Positions 1,706-38,445 of a DNA stretch of 64,000 nt are shown piece by piece. Under the pieces are notes generated by a model. That model ran no database searches, was not told the DNA's origin, and was given only the letters and a program-made list of their open reading frames with translations. How positions within the stretch are numbered: position 1 is the stretch's first letter; every line of letters starts with the position of its first letter. This stretch comes from a phage, in the sequence record PQ724393.1. One strand, 5' to 3'. The position numbers were made by a program, and so were the translations under genes.

Positions 1706-3961
1706 TTAAAGCTTACAAGCTGCACAATCGTCGGCTTTAGGAGTTTCGATTTCGTAATCGTCTGTACCAGAGCCATCACGGGTATTGTGGTAGTAAAAAT
1801 TCTTGAGCCCATAATACCATCCGTACAGCAGGTCATCAAGCATTACGGACATCGGAACTTTTCCTTTCTCATAGTTCTGAGGGTCGTAATACGTATTCGC
1901 TGACGCCGATTGGCAAACCCATTTCAACATAATTGCTACTTGGGTAAGATAAGGTTTATTACCTTTCTTAGCGAGGCTCCAAGCGTAATCATAGAGGCCT
2001 TGGTTATGTTCTACATTAGGAACTACCTGACGGAAGTTACCTTCTTTAGATTCTTTAATACTTACCGGCCCACGCGGAGGTTCGATACCGTTGGTAGAGT
2101 TGGAAACTTGGCTGCTTGACTCGCATGGCATAAGTGCTGATAATGTGCTATTACGGATGCCATGTTTAGCCAGGTCTTCCCGCAACGACGACCAGTCACA
2201 AACATAGTTTGGGGCTGCGATTTGGTCAATCTTTTTATTGTACCAGTCGATAGGAAGCTCGCCTCGAGACCACTTAGTGTCTGAATAATACTCGCAAGGT
2301 CCTTTTTCTTCGGCCAACTTGATTGATGCTCGGATAAGTCCATATTGTAATCTCTCAAACAGTTCATGAGTTAAATCGTTTGCGTCTTCATAAGAAGCAA
2401 AGTTGCTTGCCAACCATGCAGCGTAGTTGGTAACACCTACACCCAAGTTACGACGTTTCTTAGCCTTCAAAGCTTCAGGAACAGGATAGCTTTGATAATC
2501 TAATAGGTTATCAAGTGCACGTACCTGTACTTCAGCGAGTTCGTTGATTTTGTCTTGGTCTTGCCAATCAAAGTTATCCAACACGAATGCAGACAGCGTA
2601 CACAATCCGATTTCAGCGTCCGGACTATTCACATCGGTAGTCGGGATAGCAATTTCACAACACAGGTTACTCTGGCGAATAGGAGCCTTTTCACGAATAA
2701 ATGGGGTGAAGTTGTTAGTGTTATCAACAAACTGAGGATAAATTCGTGCAGTGCCTGAACGTTCGGTCATAAACAATTCGAAGAGGTCGCGTGCTTTAAT
2801 ACGTTTCTTACGAATACTAGAGTCTTTTTCAGCCGCTTCATACAATTCACGGAAACGTTCTTGGTCTTCAAAATAAGAATAATAAAGCTCACCACCCATT
2901 TCATGAGGACTGAACAGCGTGATGTAATCATTTTTACCGAAACGTTCCATCATAAGGTCGTTCAACTGGATTCCGTAGTCCATATGGCGAATACGGTTCT
3001 CGTCGACACCTTTGTTGTTTTTCAGAACGAGCAGATTTTCAACTTCCAAATGCCAAATAGGATAATAAGCAGTAGCAGCGCCGCCACGGATTCCACCTTG
3101 TGAACATGATTTAACAGCAGTCTGGAAATGTTTCCAGAATGGAATAACGCCTGTATGTTTGACTTCACCCATGCCAATACGAGAACCTTCAGCACGAATC
3201 ATACCAACGTTGATACCAATACCTGCACGTTTAGAAATGTATTCAATTATTGAGTTAGCAGTTTTGTTAATAGATTTCAGTGAGTCGCCTGCTTCAATAA
3301 CCACACAAGAACTAAATTGACGGGTTGGTGTACGTGCCCCAGCCATAATAGGAGTTGGTAATGAAACCTGACGGGTACTTACAGCATCATAAAAACGAAT
3401 AATATGGGCTAAACGGTTCCCTGGCTCGTCTTGGTGTAAGGCCATGCCAATACACATGATAGCGAACTGAGGGGTTTCATAGATTTTACCGGTTGTTTTA
3501 TCTTTAACCAGATATTTCTCTTTAAGCTGCATTGCGCCAGCGTAAGTCAATTCAAAGTCACGTTCATGCTTGATATGAGATTCTAAGAAAGTAATTTCTT
3601 CTGCAGAATATCGAGACAGCAATTCTGGGTCATATTTACCTTCGTTAACACAATAGGAAATATGGTCAATAAAACTACGCGGTTCAAACTGGCCATAAAC
3701 TTCTTTACGCAGGGCAAACATCAATTGCTTTGCAGCAACATACTGATAATCAGGCTCTTCAACCGAGATAAGGTTGGCCGCGACCTTAACAGTCAAATTC
3801 TGGATATCTTTGGTAGTCATACCATCACGAAGGTGGGATTTGATTTCTTCGTATAATTCGTAGGGATCGATTTGGGTTCCTTCACAACCCCAAGTCAGAA
3901 CTTTAATAATTTTTTGTGCGTCAAAATCTTGGGATACACCACTACTCTTTTGTACTTGCAT
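1706..3961 (-). CDS. nrdA: Ribonucleotide reductase alpha subunit
   Basis: 751 aa ORF, class Ia RNR large subunit with C-terminal CxxC tail; synteny with nrdB/td. Confidence 0.9.
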   Translation of the reverse strand: MQVQKSSGVSQDFDAQKIIKVLTWGCEGTQIDPYELYEEIKSHLRDGMTTKDIQNLTVKVAANLISVEEPDYQYVAAKQLMFALRKEVYGQFEPRSFIDHISYCVNEGKYDPELLSRYSAEEITFLESHIKHERDFELTYAGAMQLKEKYLVKDKTTGKIYETPQFAIMCIGMALHQDEPGNRLAHIIRFYDAVSTRQVSLPTPIMAGARTPTRQFSSCVVIEAGDSLKSINKTANSIIEYISKRAGIGINVGMIRAEGSRIGMGEVKHTGVIPFWKHFQTAVKSCSQGGIRGGAATAYYPIWHLEVENLLVLKNNKGVDENRIRHMDYGIQLNDLMMERFGKNDYITLFSPHEMGGELYYSYFEDQERFRELYEAAEKDSSIRKKRIKARDLFELFMTERSGTARIYPQFVDNTNNFTPFIREKAPIRQSNLCCEIAIPTTDVNSPDAEIGLCTLSAFVLDNFDWQDQDKINELAEVQVRALDNLLDYQSYPVPEALKAKKRRNLGVGVTNYAAWLASNFASYEDANDLTHELFERLQYGLIRASIKLAEEKGPCEYYSDTKWSRGELPIDWYNKKIDQIAAPNYVCDWSSLREDLAKHGIRNSTLSALMPCESSSQVSNSTNGIEPPRGPVSIKESKEGNFRQVVPNVEHNQGLYDYAWSLAKKGNKPYLTQVAIMLKWVCQSASANTYYDPQNYEKGKVPMSVMLDDLLYGWYYGLKNFYYHNTRDGSGTDDYEIETPKADDCAACKL

Positions 3962-35930: not shown

Positions 35931-36317
35931 TTATTCCTTAAAGTGGGCTTTCAACATCTGGTAAACGGTCCAGGCTTCAGAATTATTGGAGATAGTGATT
36001 TTGGTCAAAGGGAAATCACTTGGTTCATATGGGGCTACATCTTCAGACTGGTCTTCGTCTTCACTGTCAACTTCAACCATTTCTGTAAAGAATTTACGCT
36101 CACTCGCGTATATAACCATATCTTTATTATCACCGTAAACCAGGTCGAAGTTGATTATGCATCCATTTGAAATTTTAACCGGAGAAAAACCTTCACCTTC
36201 AATAATAACATCGGCTACAATATTATTGATATCTCTACGACGGAATTCAGCTTCTGCCGCGTCATCTTTAAAATAGTACCATTTACCTTTTTCAAATTCG
36301 AGTTCTTGATTAAGCAT
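35931..36317 (-). CDS. Hypothetical acidic protein, 128 aa (track ORF trimmed)
   Basis: SD GGAAGGAAA before internal ATG. Confidence 0.4.
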   Translation of the reverse strand: MLNQELEFEKGKWYYFKDDAAEAEFRRRDINNIVADVIIEGEGFSPVKISNGCIINFDLVYGDNKDMVIYASERKFFTEMVEVDSEDEDQSEDVAPYEPSDFPLTKITISNNSEAWTVYQMLKAHFKE

Positions 36318-36549
36318 TGTAAGTTTCCTTCCAGAAGTCGGTGCCTTCAGCAGTGATTTCACGGAACACTGCGTAGATAGGATTTTTATCACCTTGATTT
36401 TCATATACATAAACCGACGATAAATGAGAAAACGTATCAGAATGTTCCTTTTGAACCACGATTAAATCAGGGTTGAACAAAACATCTTCAAATTCTTCAC
36501 GAGTCGAGTTTGCAGTGATTTTAGTAGTCATTTTAAATCTCCTTAACAA
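36310..36549 (-). CDS. Hypothetical protein
   Basis: 79 aa ORF, SD AAGGAG upstream. Confidence 0.4.
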   Translation of the reverse strand: MLRRFKMTTKITANSTREEFEDVLFNPDLIVVQKEHSDTFSHLSSVYVYENQGDKNPIYAVFREITAEGTDFWKETYNA

Positions 36550-36692
36550 GCTTTAATTAAAAGATACAGACAGATAACGATAACTGCAATCATAATATAA
36601 GGTGCAAACATTTTTATTCTCCATTTCACTCATTTGTTTTGATAGGGTAATCTTATCACTACCCTACCGTATTGTATACTGTTTTTTAAACT

Positions 36693-37259
36693 TTATGCAC
36701 GGTGAATGTTAGCATATTCAACAATAAAGCTTTCAGGAACAACCTTAAAGGTTCCAAGGAACACGATGTTATAGAGCTTAACGCCACCTTCAACCCACTG
36801 GTCTGTGATGTAACCAGACATGCTACTGGTTTCGTAAGTACCAAAAGGTTCGTCAACATATTTGAACGGTTTAGGAGTATTAAAACACACTCCTCGACCT
36901 AATTTCCATTTGAAATCAACGCCTACATGAGATTGGTCAATAGTTTCAACGTCTTGAGCTACTACGCCACGGATATCATTGCTTTCACATACATACCCAT
37001 CATGAGATTCAACTTCTTCAACTACAGGAGCGATGTATCCGGTAAATTCAGTCGATTCCAGGAATTTAGCGCGCACATAGCCGAATTGGGTTTCAGTCTG
37101 GCGATTTTTAGGAATGATACGAACTTTTACTTCATAATTTTCTTCACTGACACCTTCTTTAAGTTGGATGCTAACAACTTCAACTAAACTGCCCGCAGCT
37201 TTTGAACGAGACTTTTTGGATACACGAACGATACTGCCGATATCGGAAATAGTAATCAT
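36693..37259 (-). CDS. Hypothetical protein, paralog A of tandem pair
   Basis: 188 aa; C-terminal GYITDQWVEGGVKLYNIVFLGTFKVVP shared with the adjacent gene. Confidence 0.5.
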   Translation of the reverse strand: MITISDIGSIVRVSKKSRSKAAGSLVEVVSIQLKEGVSEENYEVKVRIIPKNRQTETQFGYVRAKFLESTEFTGYIAPVVEEVESHDGYVCESNDIRGVVAQDVETIDQSHVGVDFKWKLGRGVCFNTPKPFKYVDEPFGTYETSSMSGYITDQWVEGGVKLYNIVFLGTFKVVPESFIVEYANIHRA

Positions 37260-37332
37260 AATTTTTCTCTCTTGGTTAAAGGTTTATTCTCCATGAGAGC
37301 CATTATAACATGGCCCTCGATAAAGTAAACTA

Positions 37333-37884
37333 TTAATTCAATACGTTAACCACTGCACTACGAGGTACTACACTAAAATCACCAGCATGGACAACGTTCA
37401 GGAGTTCAACACCATCTTCAATCCACTGGTCTGTTACCCAACCGCAGATAGGGTTATCAAAAGGACGACGGATAGCCACAGCAGCACACAGAAGGTCGGT
37501 AGGGTCTTGTTCGACTTCGACTTCACGGAAAAGCCCAAATTCAGCTTCATAGACTAGGATTTTCTCTACTTTGTTATTATCTAACCGGCGGCCATGTATT
37601 ACGTAAGATTTAGTAAACCAGTCACTTTTGGCGAATTCTTCAACAATAAATTCGCCTTCGCCAAAAACATCAGTCAGAGTTTTATAACCGGAAATCAAGG
37701 CCTTAGTTTTAATTTCAGGTTCAACCAGTTTGTAGGTTTTGCCGATTTCGATAGTCTGAGTAGTCATAGCGGTTTCCTTAATTTCCAGTGGTTTAACAGG
37801 GCATACATAAGTGCTTAAAACATCAAAATCAATCAGTTTAGCTGCCGGATTCGGGGTGTATTTAGGGTTGTAATTAAATTTCAT
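37333..37884 (-). CDS. Hypothetical protein, paralog B of tandem pair
   Basis: 183 aa; C-terminal GWVTDQWIEDGVELLNVVHAGDFSVVP. Confidence 0.5.
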   Translation of the reverse strand: MKFNYNPKYTPNPAAKLIDFDVLSTYVCPVKPLEIKETAMTTQTIEIGKTYKLVEPEIKTKALISGYKTLTDVFGEGEFIVEEFAKSDWFTKSYVIHGRRLDNNKVEKILVYEAEFGLFREVEVEQDPTDLLCAAVAIRRPFDNPICGWVTDQWIEDGVELLNVVHAGDFSVVPRSAVVNVLN

Positions 37885-38390
37885 AATTTTCTCATTTCAA
37901 TAAAATCTACGAGTTCGGCATAGGATTTGCGGAACATTACTTGGCGGCCACCAATGACAACCTCATCTTCAGGTATTTCGTAAACAGCAAGGTAGAATCC
38001 TTTAGAAGATAATTCTTCGCGCTCTTCACGAGTGAACCAGCGCATCATATCATACTCACTGGCAAAAGCAAAATGGTAGAGGTTAACAAACCAGCCTGGA
38101 ATATAATCGTCGCAGCCTTCATAATCAGGCCGTTTCCACTTAGTTCTAATGGTTTTATTAGAATTTTCTACCAGCAACGTATCTTGACTTGGTAGTGGGA
38201 TATTTTTATTAATGCTATGATGATGTCTAAAAATAGGTCTGTCTAAACCTACTTCTAATAACCAGCCTTCACTCCACGAGTCTGTTGTACTTCTATACGG
38301 GGTCATTTGAGTACAGAGGTCTCGTCGTATTGTGATAGCGTTTCCATCATCTAAGATACTGAACGATGACTCAACTCGATAAATTTTCAT
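37881..38390 (-). CDS. Hypothetical protein (T4 motB position)
   Basis: 169 aa ORF downstream of an early promoter. Confidence 0.4.
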   Translation of the reverse strand: MKIYRVESSFSILDDGNAITIRRDLCTQMTPYRSTTDSWSEGWLLEVGLDRPIFRHHHSINKNIPLPSQDTLLVENSNKTIRTKWKRPDYEGCDDYIPGWFVNLYHFAFASEYDMMRWFTREEREELSSKGFYLAVYEIPEDEVVIGGRQVMFRKSYAELVDFIEMRKL

Positions 38391-38414
38391 TTTGTTCTCC
38401 TCATGTTGATAGGG

Positions 38415-38445
38415 TTATAGTATCATGCCATGAGGAGAAGTAAAC
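38415..38445 (-). promoter_or_regulatory. T4-type early promoter
   Basis: GTTTAC (38440-38445) plus TGATACTATAACCCTATCAAC block. Confidence 0.5.

What the first reader, a model, noticed from the sequence alone, without database searches (positions are those of the whole stretch)
36693..37884. Tandem paralogous genes with a conserved C-terminal DQW...VVP module
Two adjacent ORFs (188 and 183 aa) share a C-terminal block (G-[WY]-[IV]-TDQW-[IV]-E-x-GV-x-L-x-N-[IV]-V-x-x-G-x-F-x-VVP) but diverge at the N-terminus. This looks like a local duplication followed by diversification, a pattern often seen for host-interaction or anti-defence genes.
Basis: seen in the sequence. Interest (0 to 1): 0.45.

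Follow-up and report, generated by a model that had tools for sequence, protein, structure and literature searches.

The report
Known phage paralogues motB and motB.1
The two adjacent genes are the already described T4-type phage early genes motB and motB.1, which really do share a short, highly conserved C-terminal module but carry unrelated N-terminal domains, so the finding is correct but ordinary.

Summary
The 188-aa ORF (36693-37259, minus strand) and the 183-aa ORF (37333-37884, minus strand) share a C-terminal block: BLASTP 19/40 identical, E 2e-11, and profile-profile E 5.6e-14 over 37 columns. There are only two copies in the window.

The window is a Dhakavirus, a JS98-like T4-type phage. 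ORF1 is MotB (Pfam PF17613, E 1.3e-60). ORF2 is MotB.1 (phrog_2333, E 4.5e-87, and annotated motB.1 in JS98).

This relationship is already published. Patterson-West et al. 2021 described the same shared C-terminal domain, the different N-terminal domains and a suggested duplication. Kim et al. 2025 described the N-terminal domain of MotB.1 as an LSm-like fold related to GoF and Frd.2.

The N-termini are not diverged copies of one another. They are different domains: a basic KOW/SH3-like one in MotB and an LSm-like one in MotB.1. The pattern is therefore an old duplication plus domain replacement.

Klebsiella and Enterobacter T4-type phages carry a single gene at this position. It has the MotB-type N-terminus and a MotB.1-type C-terminus.

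In T4, MotB binds DNA nonspecifically, changes how the host protein H-NS sits on DNA, and doubles burst size. MotB.1 has no known function. I found no evidence for an anti-defence role.

Novelty: already known. Interest: low.

The parts
36693..37259 (-). motB coding sequence (188 aa plus stop).
   Evidence: Pfam PF17613 motB, E 1.3e-60. phrog_1671, E 4.5e-70. 55% identical to T4 MotB, E 3e-66. 100% identical to the MotB of phage EcWhh-1.
37333..37884 (-). motB.1 coding sequence (183 aa plus stop).
   Evidence: phrog_2333, full length, E 4.5e-87. The syntenic gene in JS98 is annotated motB.1. Matches T4 MotB.1 with E 3e-23. 232 homologues were found, most about 180 aa long.
36714..36824 (-). 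Shared C-terminal module in MotB (aa 146-182, SMSGYITDQWVEGGVKLYNIVFLGTFKVVPESFIVEY).
   Evidence: Supported by BLASTP, hhalign and the six-frame HMM search. It is the most conserved part of the family: mean pairwise identity 0.73, against about 0.5 elsewhere. AF2 places it in strands 140-157, 160-167, 170-175 and 179-182 at pLDDT 87-92. Net charge is -2.5.
37342..37452 (-). Shared C-terminal module in MotB.1 (aa 145-181, PICGWVTDQWIEDGVELLNVVHAGDFSVVPRSAVVNV).
   Evidence: Supported. Mean pairwise identity within the family is 0.92, against about 0.75 elsewhere. AF2 places it in strands 146-156, 159-166, 169-174 and 178-182 at pLDDT 75-83. Net charge is -4.
37056..37259 (-). MotB N-terminal domain (aa 1-68): basic, four beta strands, KOW/SH3-like.
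36933..37055 (-). MotB acidic disordered linker (aa 69-109). It includes an insert of about 24-27 aa that T4 MotB lacks.
   Evidence: pLDDT below 50 for residues 71-109. Charge is -9.4. There is a 24-residue gap against T4 MotB. The insert is present or absent among homologues.
37510..37758 (-). MotB.1 LSm-like / SH3-like beta domain (aa 43-125).
37759..37884 (-). MotB.1 N-terminal extension (aa 1-42). It is predicted disordered and carries the conserved motif LIDFDVLSTYVCPVKPLEIKE.
   Evidence: pLDDT below 50. The sequence is nevertheless conserved, and it is read in frame in the 245-250-aa variants that have an extra N-terminal domain. T4 MotB.1 lacks it. An internal ATG at aa 40 has an AAGGA Shine-Dalgarno sequence, so a shorter product is also possible.
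37302..37329 (-). T4 early-promoter-like site (TTTACT, 16-nt spacer, TG-extended TATAAT) in the 73-nt gap between motB.1 and motB.
   Evidence: Best promoter match in the region, 10 of 12 positions with a TG extension. Read from the sequence. T4 has GTTTAC...TATAAT at the same place. This is a consensus match only.
37881..38390 (-). motB.2 (169 aa), the gene immediately upstream. Its stop overlaps the motB.1 start (ATGA).
   Evidence: phrog_1106, E 9.6e-51. Annotated motB.2 in JS98. The overlap is visible.
35931..36410 (-). GoF-like gene (context). It belongs to the same phrog family that the MotB.1 N-terminal domain hits.
   Evidence: phrog_622, E 3.1e-26, and phrog_13003 (goF), E 3.8e-5. The JS98 annotation reads 'putative RNA metabolism modulator'.

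Best explanation
The two ORFs are motB and motB.1, early genes in the dispensable gene 39-dda region of a JS98-like (Dhakavirus) T4-type phage.

Each protein has two domains joined by a disordered segment. What they share is the C-terminal domain, a small all-beta domain. Its last 37 residues (strands 2-5) are strongly conserved and acidic.

MotB carries a basic KOW/SH3-like N-terminal domain in front of this module. MotB.1 carries an LSm-like N-terminal domain of the GoF/Frd.2 type.

The most likely history (inferred) is as follows. The ancestor was a single gene with a KOW-type N-terminus and the C-terminal domain; Klebsiella and Enterobacter T4-type phages still have one such gene at this position. 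That gene duplicated in tandem. One copy kept the KOW domain and remodelled the first part of its C-terminal domain, giving MotB. The other copy kept the original C-terminal domain and had its N-terminus replaced by an LSm-like domain, giving MotB.1.

Function:
- Shown in T4, not here: MotB binds duplex DNA tightly and without sequence preference. It co-purifies with H-NS and StpA, changes the H-NS footprint, de-represses part of the H-NS regulon when over-produced, is toxic to the host, and doubles burst size.
- Inferred here: in MotB the basic N-terminal domain is the more likely DNA-contacting part. The shared acidic module is more likely a common self-association or partner-binding platform than a DNA-binding surface. 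MotB.1 would then bring a different nucleic-acid-binding head to the same partner or assembly.

MotB.1 has no demonstrated function.
For: Identity of the genes:
- Pfam and PHROG hits.
- 90-95% DNA identity to Dhakavirus genomes with identical gene order 39, 39.1, 39.2, goF-like, cef, motB, motB.1, motB.2, dexA, dda.
- Homology to T4 MotB and MotB.1.

Extent of the shared part: 37 columns by hhalign.

Structure:
- The AF2 models show the same four terminal strands in both proteins, preceded by one more strand.

Conservation: the module is the best-conserved segment of each family.

Distribution:
- It is always C-terminal and occurs in only 30 of 1.84 billion cluster representatives.
- It sits behind at least five N-terminal arrangements: KOW; LSm-like; two LSm-like domains; an extra domain plus LSm-like; and a 43-aa deletion remnant.

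Single-gene state: Klebsiella phage PWKp16 and Enterobacter phage CIP9 have one gene between dexA and cef. It has a MotB-type N-terminus and a MotB.1-type module, 30/37 and 25/37 identical to the window's MotB.1 module against 17-18/37 to its MotB module.

Charge: MotB N-terminal domain pI 9.7; modules -2.5 and -4.

Published biology: PMC6070864, PMC7827196, PMC12152347.
Against: - No experiment exists for this phage, and the functional statements are transferred from T4, whose MotB is 55% identical.
- Patterson-West et al. assigned the C-terminal domain to a cold-shock-like OB fold and considered it a possible DNA-binding domain. My preference for a partner-binding or assembly role rests only on charge and conservation.
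- The AF2 models are of moderate confidence (mean pLDDT 68 and 71, pTM about 0.43). The fold searches used whole chains, so the matches cannot be assigned to one domain.
- The order of evolutionary events is inferred from a few genomes, not from a rooted phylogeny.
- The similarity of the MotB.1 N-terminal domain to GoF is weak in my own tests: phrog E 1.9e-5, but hhalign against the single GoF-like sequence is not significant.
Confidence: 0.85

Rival explanations
1. The C-terminal resemblance is a chance or compositional match, and the genes are unrelated.
For: The shared block is short (37-40 aa), and nothing else in the two proteins aligns.
Against: - BLASTP gives E 2e-11.
- hhalign gives E 5.6e-14.
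- ORF2 passes the Pfam motB gathering threshold.
- The module HMM finds only these two places in 64 kb, at E about 1e-25.
- The same block is conserved in hundreds of phage genomes.
Confidence: 0.01
2. A recent whole-gene tandem duplication was followed by fast sequence divergence of the N-terminal half.
For: - The genes are adjacent, on the same strand and of similar length.
- The published papers also speak of duplication.
Against: - The N-terminal halves match different families (phrog_1671 N-terminal part against phrog_622) and have different predicted architectures.
- The two module types are only 18/37 identical to each other, yet each is 28-32/37 identical between this phage and T4. The split therefore predates the divergence of the genera.
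- The DNA repeat is only 74% identical over 53 nt.
- Proteins with a KOW N-terminus and a MotB.1-type C-terminus exist.
Confidence: 0.08
3. The shared C-terminal domain is the nucleic-acid-binding element, an OB-fold as proposed from HHpred. Both MotB and MotB.1 would then be DNA-binding nucleoid proteins that differ in an N-terminal effector domain.
For: - HHpred assigned the T4 MotB C-terminal domain to the cold-shock-like OB fold (PMC7827196).
- The module has conserved aromatic residues ([WYF]-x-x-D-Q-W) of the kind that stack on bases.
- It is the most conserved part of both families.
Against: - The module is acidic in both proteins (-2.5 and -4), and the whole MotB.1 C-terminal domain has pI 4.2, whereas the MotB N-terminal domain has pI 9.7.
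- The AF2 strands are joined by two-residue turns, a simple meander more like SH3/Tudor than OB.
- No DNA- or RNA-related effect of MotB.1 was seen in the reporter assays of PMC12152347. However, that work used the 119-aa form, which lacks most of the module.
Confidence: 0.3
4. The pair is an anti-defence locus: one or both proteins inhibit a bacterial immune system, and the variable N-termini reflect an arms race.
For: - The genes lie in a dispensable early region rich in host-takeover genes.
- The N-terminal architecture varies between phages.
- Deleting motB.1 has no phenotype on laboratory strains, as is often the case for anti-defence genes.
Against: - No literature links MotB or MotB.1 to a defence system.
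- Nothing matches in the PADLOC or NCBIfam libraries. These libraries do not hold anti-defence families, so this is weak evidence.
- The conserved part is under strong purifying selection rather than diversifying selection.
- MotB already has a demonstrated DNA/H-NS-related activity.
Confidence: 0.08

Closest known systems
T4 MotB (Pfam PF17613, 'modifier of transcription'; Patterson-West et al. 2018 and 2021)
   Same: - ORF1 aligns with it end to end (55% identity, E 3e-66).
- It has the same KOW-like N-terminal motif and the same C-terminal module (28/37 identical).
- It sits at the same position between cef and motB.1.
- The same early-promoter-like site lies upstream.
   Different: - The window's MotB has an acidic, disordered insert of about 24-27 residues (ESHDGYVCESNDIRG...) in the linker, which T4 lacks.
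- No biochemical data exist for the Dhakavirus protein.
T4 MotB.1 (UniProt P39415; Category 2 and 4 proteins of Patterson-West 2021; LSm-like family of Kim et al. 2025)
   Same: - ORF2 shares the end of the N-terminal domain and the C-terminal domain (32/52 identical, E 3e-23).
- It sits at the same position between motB.2 and motB.
- It has the same beta-rich N-terminal domain followed by the module.
   Different: - ORF2 is 183 aa. It has a 42-residue conserved but disordered N-terminal extension that T4 lacks.
- Its N-terminal domain is so diverged from T4's that BLASTP aligns only its last strand.
- The 119-aa T4 reference protein ends inside the module because of an extra G that only the reference record has. 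Other T4 records encode 143 aa with the full module.
T4 GoF and Frd.2 (LSm-like fold family)
   Same: The MotB.1 N-terminal domain hits the PHROG family of the window's GoF-like gene (E 1.9e-5). It is published as structurally equivalent to the GoF and Frd.2 N-terminal domains.
   Different: - GoF and Frd.2 lack the MotB-type C-terminal module; no third copy was found in the window.
- Direct sequence comparison with the window's GoF-like protein is not significant.
Single-gene MotB homologues of Klebsiella and Enterobacter T4-type phages (PWKp16 UJD05361, CIP9 QHS01652)
   Same: They have the same KOW-type N-terminus as MotB and the same DPTDLL...GWVTDQWIEDGVELLNVVH...VVPRS C-terminal domain as MotB.1. 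They lie at the same place between dexA and cef.
   Different: There is one gene instead of two, and it combines what the window splits between motB and motB.1.
Other phage proteins that counteract H-NS (T7 gp5.5, T4 Arn, and the phage protein studied in PMC8501957)
   Same: They have the same proposed target as MotB: relief or alteration of H-NS-mediated silencing during infection.
   Different: - There is no sequence or fold relationship.
- According to the literature excerpts read, gp5.5 interferes with H-NS oligomerisation and Arn is a DNA mimic aimed at the H-NS DNA-binding domain, whereas MotB itself binds DNA.

Membership tests
MotB (Pfam PF17613 / phrog_1671) | Whole-protein score above the Pfam gathering cut-off (25 bits). 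| tested here: met
   ORF1 scores 204.4 bits over the C-terminal 95 residues plus a second stretch. ORF2 scores 34.7 bits, through residues 144-178 only.
MotB (Pfam PF17613 / phrog_1671) | N-terminal KOW-like domain with the conserved V-S-x-x-S-[RK]-S-[KR]-x-x-G motif. | tested here: met
   Met for ORF1: IVRVSKKSRSKAAG, with G8, V13, S14, S17, S19 and G23 invariant in 28 homologues, and a four-strand N-terminal domain in AF2. Not met for ORF2, which lacks the motif. ORF2 is therefore a relative through the module only, not a MotB orthologue.
MotB (Pfam PF17613 / phrog_1671) | Position between cef and dexA in the gene 39-dda early region of a T4-type phage. | tested here: met
   The gene order is identical to JS98, UP19 and T4.
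MotB (Pfam PF17613 / phrog_1671) | Tight, sequence-nonspecific DNA binding and co-purification with H-NS and StpA. | not testable with these tools
   Shown only for T4 MotB (PMC6070864 and PMC7827196).
MotB.1 (phrog_2333; Categories 2 and 4 of Patterson-West 2021) | Full-length match to the family profile. | tested here: met
   ORF2 residues 1-183 match phrog_2333 positions 1-210, E 4.5e-87. The search returned 232 homologues; in the listed rows the full-length ones are 70-98% identical.
MotB.1 (phrog_2333; Categories 2 and 4 of Patterson-West 2021) | C-terminal domain of the MotB.1 type (DPTDLLC...GWVTDQWIEDGVELLNVVHAG...VVPRS). | tested here: met
   32/37 module residues are identical to intact T4 MotB.1, against 18/37 to T4 MotB.
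MotB.1 (phrog_2333; Categories 2 and 4 of Patterson-West 2021) | LSm-like five-stranded N-terminal domain related to GoF and Frd.2. | tested here: inconclusive
- Against: hhalign with the window's GoF-like sequence is not significant.
- Limit: the domain could not be searched separately.
Cold-shock-like OB fold (proposed in the literature for the shared C-terminal domain) | Five-stranded Greek-key barrel, usually with a helix between strands 3 and 4. | tested here: inconclusive
   - The AF2 C-terminal domains are five antiparallel strands joined by tight turns, with no helix.
- The whole-chain searches cannot assign hits to a domain.
- No relative in the PDB is detectable by sequence.
Anti-defence proteins | Demonstrated or predicted inhibition of a bacterial defence system. 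| not testable with these tools
   No library of anti-defence families was available. PADLOC, which holds defence systems, gave nothing. The literature search gave no link.

The most novel reading that the evidence does not exclude
The 37-residue acidic module may be a portable C-terminal adaptor. It would dock interchangeable nucleic-acid-binding heads (KOW, one or two LSm-like domains) onto one common target, for example H-NS/StpA filaments, or onto each other. MotB and MotB.1 would then form mixed assemblies, and MotB.1 would be an unrecognised second component of the MotB nucleoid-remodelling activity. Its reported lack of phenotype and activity in T4 would partly be an artefact of working with a 119-aa form truncated inside the module.
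Probability: 0.2. Interest if true: 0.45.

Novelty: already known. Interest (0 to 1): 0.12.

Why it matters
As a discovery it matters little, because the MotB/MotB.1 relationship and the duplication idea were published in 2021 and the nature of the MotB.1 N-terminal domain in 2025.

Three by-products may be useful to people working on T4 early genes:
1. The homology is confined to a 37-residue acidic beta module. It is the best-conserved part of both families, which points to it as the piece to mutate.
2. Klebsiella and Enterobacter T4-type phages have a single gene that combines the MotB head with the MotB.1 tail. This gives a simple evolutionary model.
3. The T4 reference sequence carries an extra G that truncates MotB.1 inside the module, while twelve other records (ten of T4 and its derivatives, plus RB55 and RB59) encode an intact 143-aa protein. 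Experiments based on the 119-aa form may therefore have tested an incomplete protein.

Tried and rejected
- Sequence searches of both proteins, the MotB family profile and the module profile against all PDB chains found only noise: designed Pizza propellers, a kinase, ILK.
- NCBIfam and PADLOC scans found no hits.
- An Rfam scan of the whole window at gathering thresholds found no RNA family, so no known RNA family explains the region.
- hhalign of the MotB.1 family against the window's GoF-like protein was not significant, and neither was BLASTP. I therefore rely on the PHROG hit and the literature for that link.
- I looked for a third copy of the module elsewhere in the 64 kb and found none.
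- I considered recent gene conversion between the two modules. I rejected it because the DNA identity is only 74% over 53 nt and the two module types are distinct in all genera examined.
- I considered that ORF2 might start at the internal ATG (aa 40), which has a good Shine-Dalgarno sequence. This cannot be excluded as an additional start. However, the upstream 39 codons are conserved and are read through in the longer variants, so the long ORF is kept.
- A Foldseek search of viral models returned only family members.
- I did not use the third homologue search, because nothing decisive depended on it.
Full report
**What is in the sequence**

The interval 36693-37884 holds two minus-strand ORFs exactly as described: 36693-37259 (188 aa) and 37333-37884 (183 aa).
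- They are separated by 73 nt, and this gap contains the best promoter-like match of the region: TTTACT, a 16-nt spacer, then a TG-extended TATAAT.
- BLASTP of the two proteins gives one alignment at the extreme C-termini, with 19/40 identical and E 2e-11.
- At the DNA level the modules form a 53-nt direct repeat of 74% identity.
- An HMM of the module, searched against the six-frame translation of the whole window, finds these two copies (E about 1e-25) and nothing else.

**Identity of the genes**

The window is a T4-type phage of the genus Dhakavirus. The 3.8 kb around the finding is 90-95% identical to UP19, JS98, MN04 and other members of the genus.
- The gene order is 39, 39.1, 39.2, goF-like, cef, motB, motB.1, motB.2, dexA, dexA.1, dda. 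This matches JS98 and UP19 and is very close to T4.
- ORF1 is MotB: Pfam PF17613 E 1.3e-60, phrog_1671 E 4.5e-70, 55% identity to T4 MotB, and 100% identity to the MotB of phage EcWhh-1.
- ORF2 is MotB.1: phrog_2333 E 4.5e-87 over its full length, annotated motB.1 in JS98, and E 3e-23 against T4 MotB.1.

**This is already known**

Patterson-West et al. 2021 (PMC7827196) made several of the same points:
[quoted passage not shown] - 40 other phage genomes have both genes.
- Further categories of relatives carry other N-terminal domains.

Only these two papers in the searchable library mention motB.1.

**How far the homology goes**

A profile-profile comparison of 28 MotB and 22 MotB.1 sequences aligns 37 columns (E 5.6e-14) and nothing else.

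The AF2 model of MotB (mean pLDDT 71) has three parts:
- a four-strand N-terminal domain (aa 1-68);
- a disordered acidic linker (71-109);
- a five-strand C-terminal domain (123-182, pLDDT 80-92).

The AF2 model of MotB.1 (mean pLDDT 68) also has three parts:
- a disordered N-terminus (1-42);
- a beta-rich domain (50-122);
- a C-terminal domain with strands at 135-138, 146-156, 159-166, 169-174 and 178-182.

The conserved module therefore corresponds to strands 2 to 5 of a small beta domain that both proteins have. The first strand has diverged, although a weak L-x-x-x-V-x-[FI]-x-x-P pattern remains, and the PHROG MotB profile aligns ORF2 from residue 121.

No relative with a solved structure is detectable by sequence.

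**The N-termini are different domains, not diverged copies**

- The MotB N-terminal domain is basic (pI 9.7) and carries the invariant VS..S.SK..G motif. HHpred related it to KOW domains.
- The MotB.1 N-terminal domain hits phrog_622, the family of the GoF-like gene two genes downstream (E 1.9e-5). My direct comparisons with that gene are not significant, in line with the statement of Kim et al. that BLASTP sees nothing.

**Distribution and architectures**

A profile of the module, searched against 1.84 billion cluster representatives, finds only 30 proteins. About 25 of them are clearly genuine, and in these the module is C-terminal. Their sequences show several arrangements:
- a KOW-type N-terminus with a MotB-type C-terminal domain;
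- a KOW-type N-terminus with a MotB.1-type C-terminal domain (for example P0216, P0219, P0225-P0227);
- an LSm-like N-terminal domain with a MotB.1-type C-terminal domain (the window; T4);
- two LSm-like domains in tandem (P0218);
- an extra N-terminal domain in front of the LSm-like one (P0221, and P0064);
- a 43-aa remnant that fuses the start of MotB.2 to the end of the module (P0234).

In the phage collection, 771 records match ORF2, mostly phages of Escherichia, Shigella, Klebsiella, Yersinia, Salmonella and Enterobacter. Of these, 368 hold the long form.

Klebsiella phage PWKp16 and Enterobacter phage CIP9 have a single gene between dexA and cef. It combines the MotB head with a MotB.1-type C-terminal domain. 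Their modules are 30/37 and 25/37 identical to the window's MotB.1 module, but only 17-18/37 identical to its MotB module.

The two module types are each conserved from this phage to T4 (28/37 for MotB, 32/37 for MotB.1), while they share only 18/37 with each other.

Together this supports an old tandem duplication of a KOW-plus-C-terminal-domain gene. One copy, MotB.1, then had its head replaced by an LSm-like domain, and the other, MotB, remodelled the first half of its C-terminal domain. This order of events is an inference.

**How it most likely works**

The following has been shown for T4 MotB:
- tight, sequence-nonspecific binding to unmodified and glucosyl-hydroxymethylated DNA;
- co-purification with H-NS and StpA in the presence of DNA;
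- an altered H-NS DNase I footprint;
- up-regulation of 75 host genes on over-production, about a third of them in the H-NS regulon;
- strong toxicity to the host;
- a two-fold gain in burst size.

I transfer this activity to ORF1 by homology.

For the shared module the evidence is indirect. It is the most conserved segment of each family (0.73 against about 0.5, and 0.92 against about 0.75 mean pairwise identity). It is acidic (-2.5 and -4). It keeps invariant polar residues (D, Q, W, E, N) across both paralogues.

I therefore favour a role as a common self-association or partner-binding platform, at roughly even odds. DNA contact would be made by the basic KOW-like head in MotB, and some other nucleic-acid or protein contact by the LSm-like head in MotB.1. 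The main rival is the published suggestion that the C-terminal domain is itself a DNA-binding OB fold.

MotB.1 has no demonstrated function. An anti-defence role is not supported by anything I found.

**Side observations**

1. The T4 reference record (NC_000866.4, identical to AF158101.6) has one extra G in motB.1 (ATTGGAAG instead of ATTGAAG).
   - The annotated 119-aa product therefore ends right after GWVTDQWI.
   - The rest of the module is readable in the +1 frame.
   - Twelve other records (ten of T4 and its derivatives, plus RB55 and RB59) are 100% identical to the intact 432-nt gene, which encodes 143 aa.
   - The 13.8-kDa protein of UniProt P39415, which is the size given in the 2025 study, thus lacks most of the module.
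2. The window has a 22-codon hydrophobic ORF with a GGAG ribosome-binding site between motB and cef. It lies in a stretch that is absent from JS98 but present, unannotated, in UP19.
3. The window's MotB has an acidic disordered insert that T4 MotB lacks.
4. A short motif, D-x-D-[VI]-x-S-x-Y-x-x-P, recurs in the disordered N-terminus of MotB.1 and in the linkers of several relatives.

**Verdict**

MotB has a host-nucleoid role, and there is no evidence for anti-defence. The feature is already described in the literature, so novelty is 'already known' and interest is low.

Noticed in passing
L002 (T4 NC_000866.4) 2643-3151 minus strand; L003 (T4 MT984581.1) 512-943: The T4 reference record has one extra G inside motB.1 (ATTGGAAG instead of ATTGAAG). 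This truncates the annotated protein to 119 aa in the middle of the conserved module. Twelve other records (ten of T4 and its derivatives, plus RB55 and RB59) encode an intact 143-aa MotB.1. It is probably an error, or a private mutation, of the reference, and it is relevant to published work on the '13.8 kDa' protein.
   Followed up: yes
window 36543-36611 (minus strand): There is an unannotated 22-codon hydrophobic ORF (MFAPYIMIAVIVICLYLLIKAC) with a GGAG ribosome-binding site between motB and cef. Its stop overlaps the Shine-Dalgarno sequence of cef. The stretch is absent from JS98 and present identically in UP19. It may encode a small membrane peptide.
   Followed up: partly
window 36531-36549 (minus strand): The mechanical cef ORF starts at TTG 36549. 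An ATG at 36531, preceded by AAGGAG, fits the Pfam T4_Cef profile (which begins at residue 7) and the length of the JS98 gene. That ATG is the likely true start.
   Followed up: partly
window 36940-37020 (MotB aa about 80-106): The window's MotB has an acidic, predicted-disordered insert (VVEEVESHDGYVCESNDIRGVVAQDVE) that is absent from T4 MotB. It is present or absent, as a block, among otherwise close homologues. JS10 MotB has the same C-terminal half as the window but a different N-terminal half, a sign of mosaic recombination within motB.
   Followed up: partly
window 37786-37830 (MotB.1 aa 19-33); also P0219, P0223, P0224, P0225, P0229, P0232, P0233: A short conserved motif, D-x-D-[VI]-x-[SC]-x-Y-x-x-P (here IDFDVLSTYVCPVKP), sits in predicted disordered segments. 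It lies at the N-terminus of MotB.1 here and in the inter-domain linker of KOW-plus-C-terminal-domain relatives. It could be a linear interaction motif.
   Followed up: no
L004 2731-3174 (Klebsiella phage PWKp16); L005 2740-3234 (Enterobacter phage CIP9): These T4-type phages have a single gene between dexA and cef. It combines a MotB-type KOW N-terminus with a MotB.1-type C-terminal domain, which is a candidate for the ancestral, unduplicated state.
   Followed up: partly
window 37767 (internal ATG of motB.1, aa 40): An internal ATG preceded by AAGGA lies at the position where T4 MotB.1 starts. A shorter MotB.1 isoform lacking the disordered N-terminus is possible.
   Followed up: no
window 36639-36658 and 38406-38425: A 20-nt repeat (TTGATAGGGTAATCTTATCA and TTGATAGGGTTATAGTATCA) occurs in two intergenic regions, downstream of motB and downstream of dexA. 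At 36639-36658 it is part of a hairpin-forming sequence. It could be a transcript-end or processing signal.
   Followed up: no
P0234 (43 aa, from the metagenome protein library): This protein fuses the first 14 residues of MotB.2 to the last 28 residues of the MotB.1 module. It is evidently a deletion that removed most of motB.2 and motB.1 in some phage. It recalls the 29-aa RB69 peptide reported in 2021.
   Followed up: no
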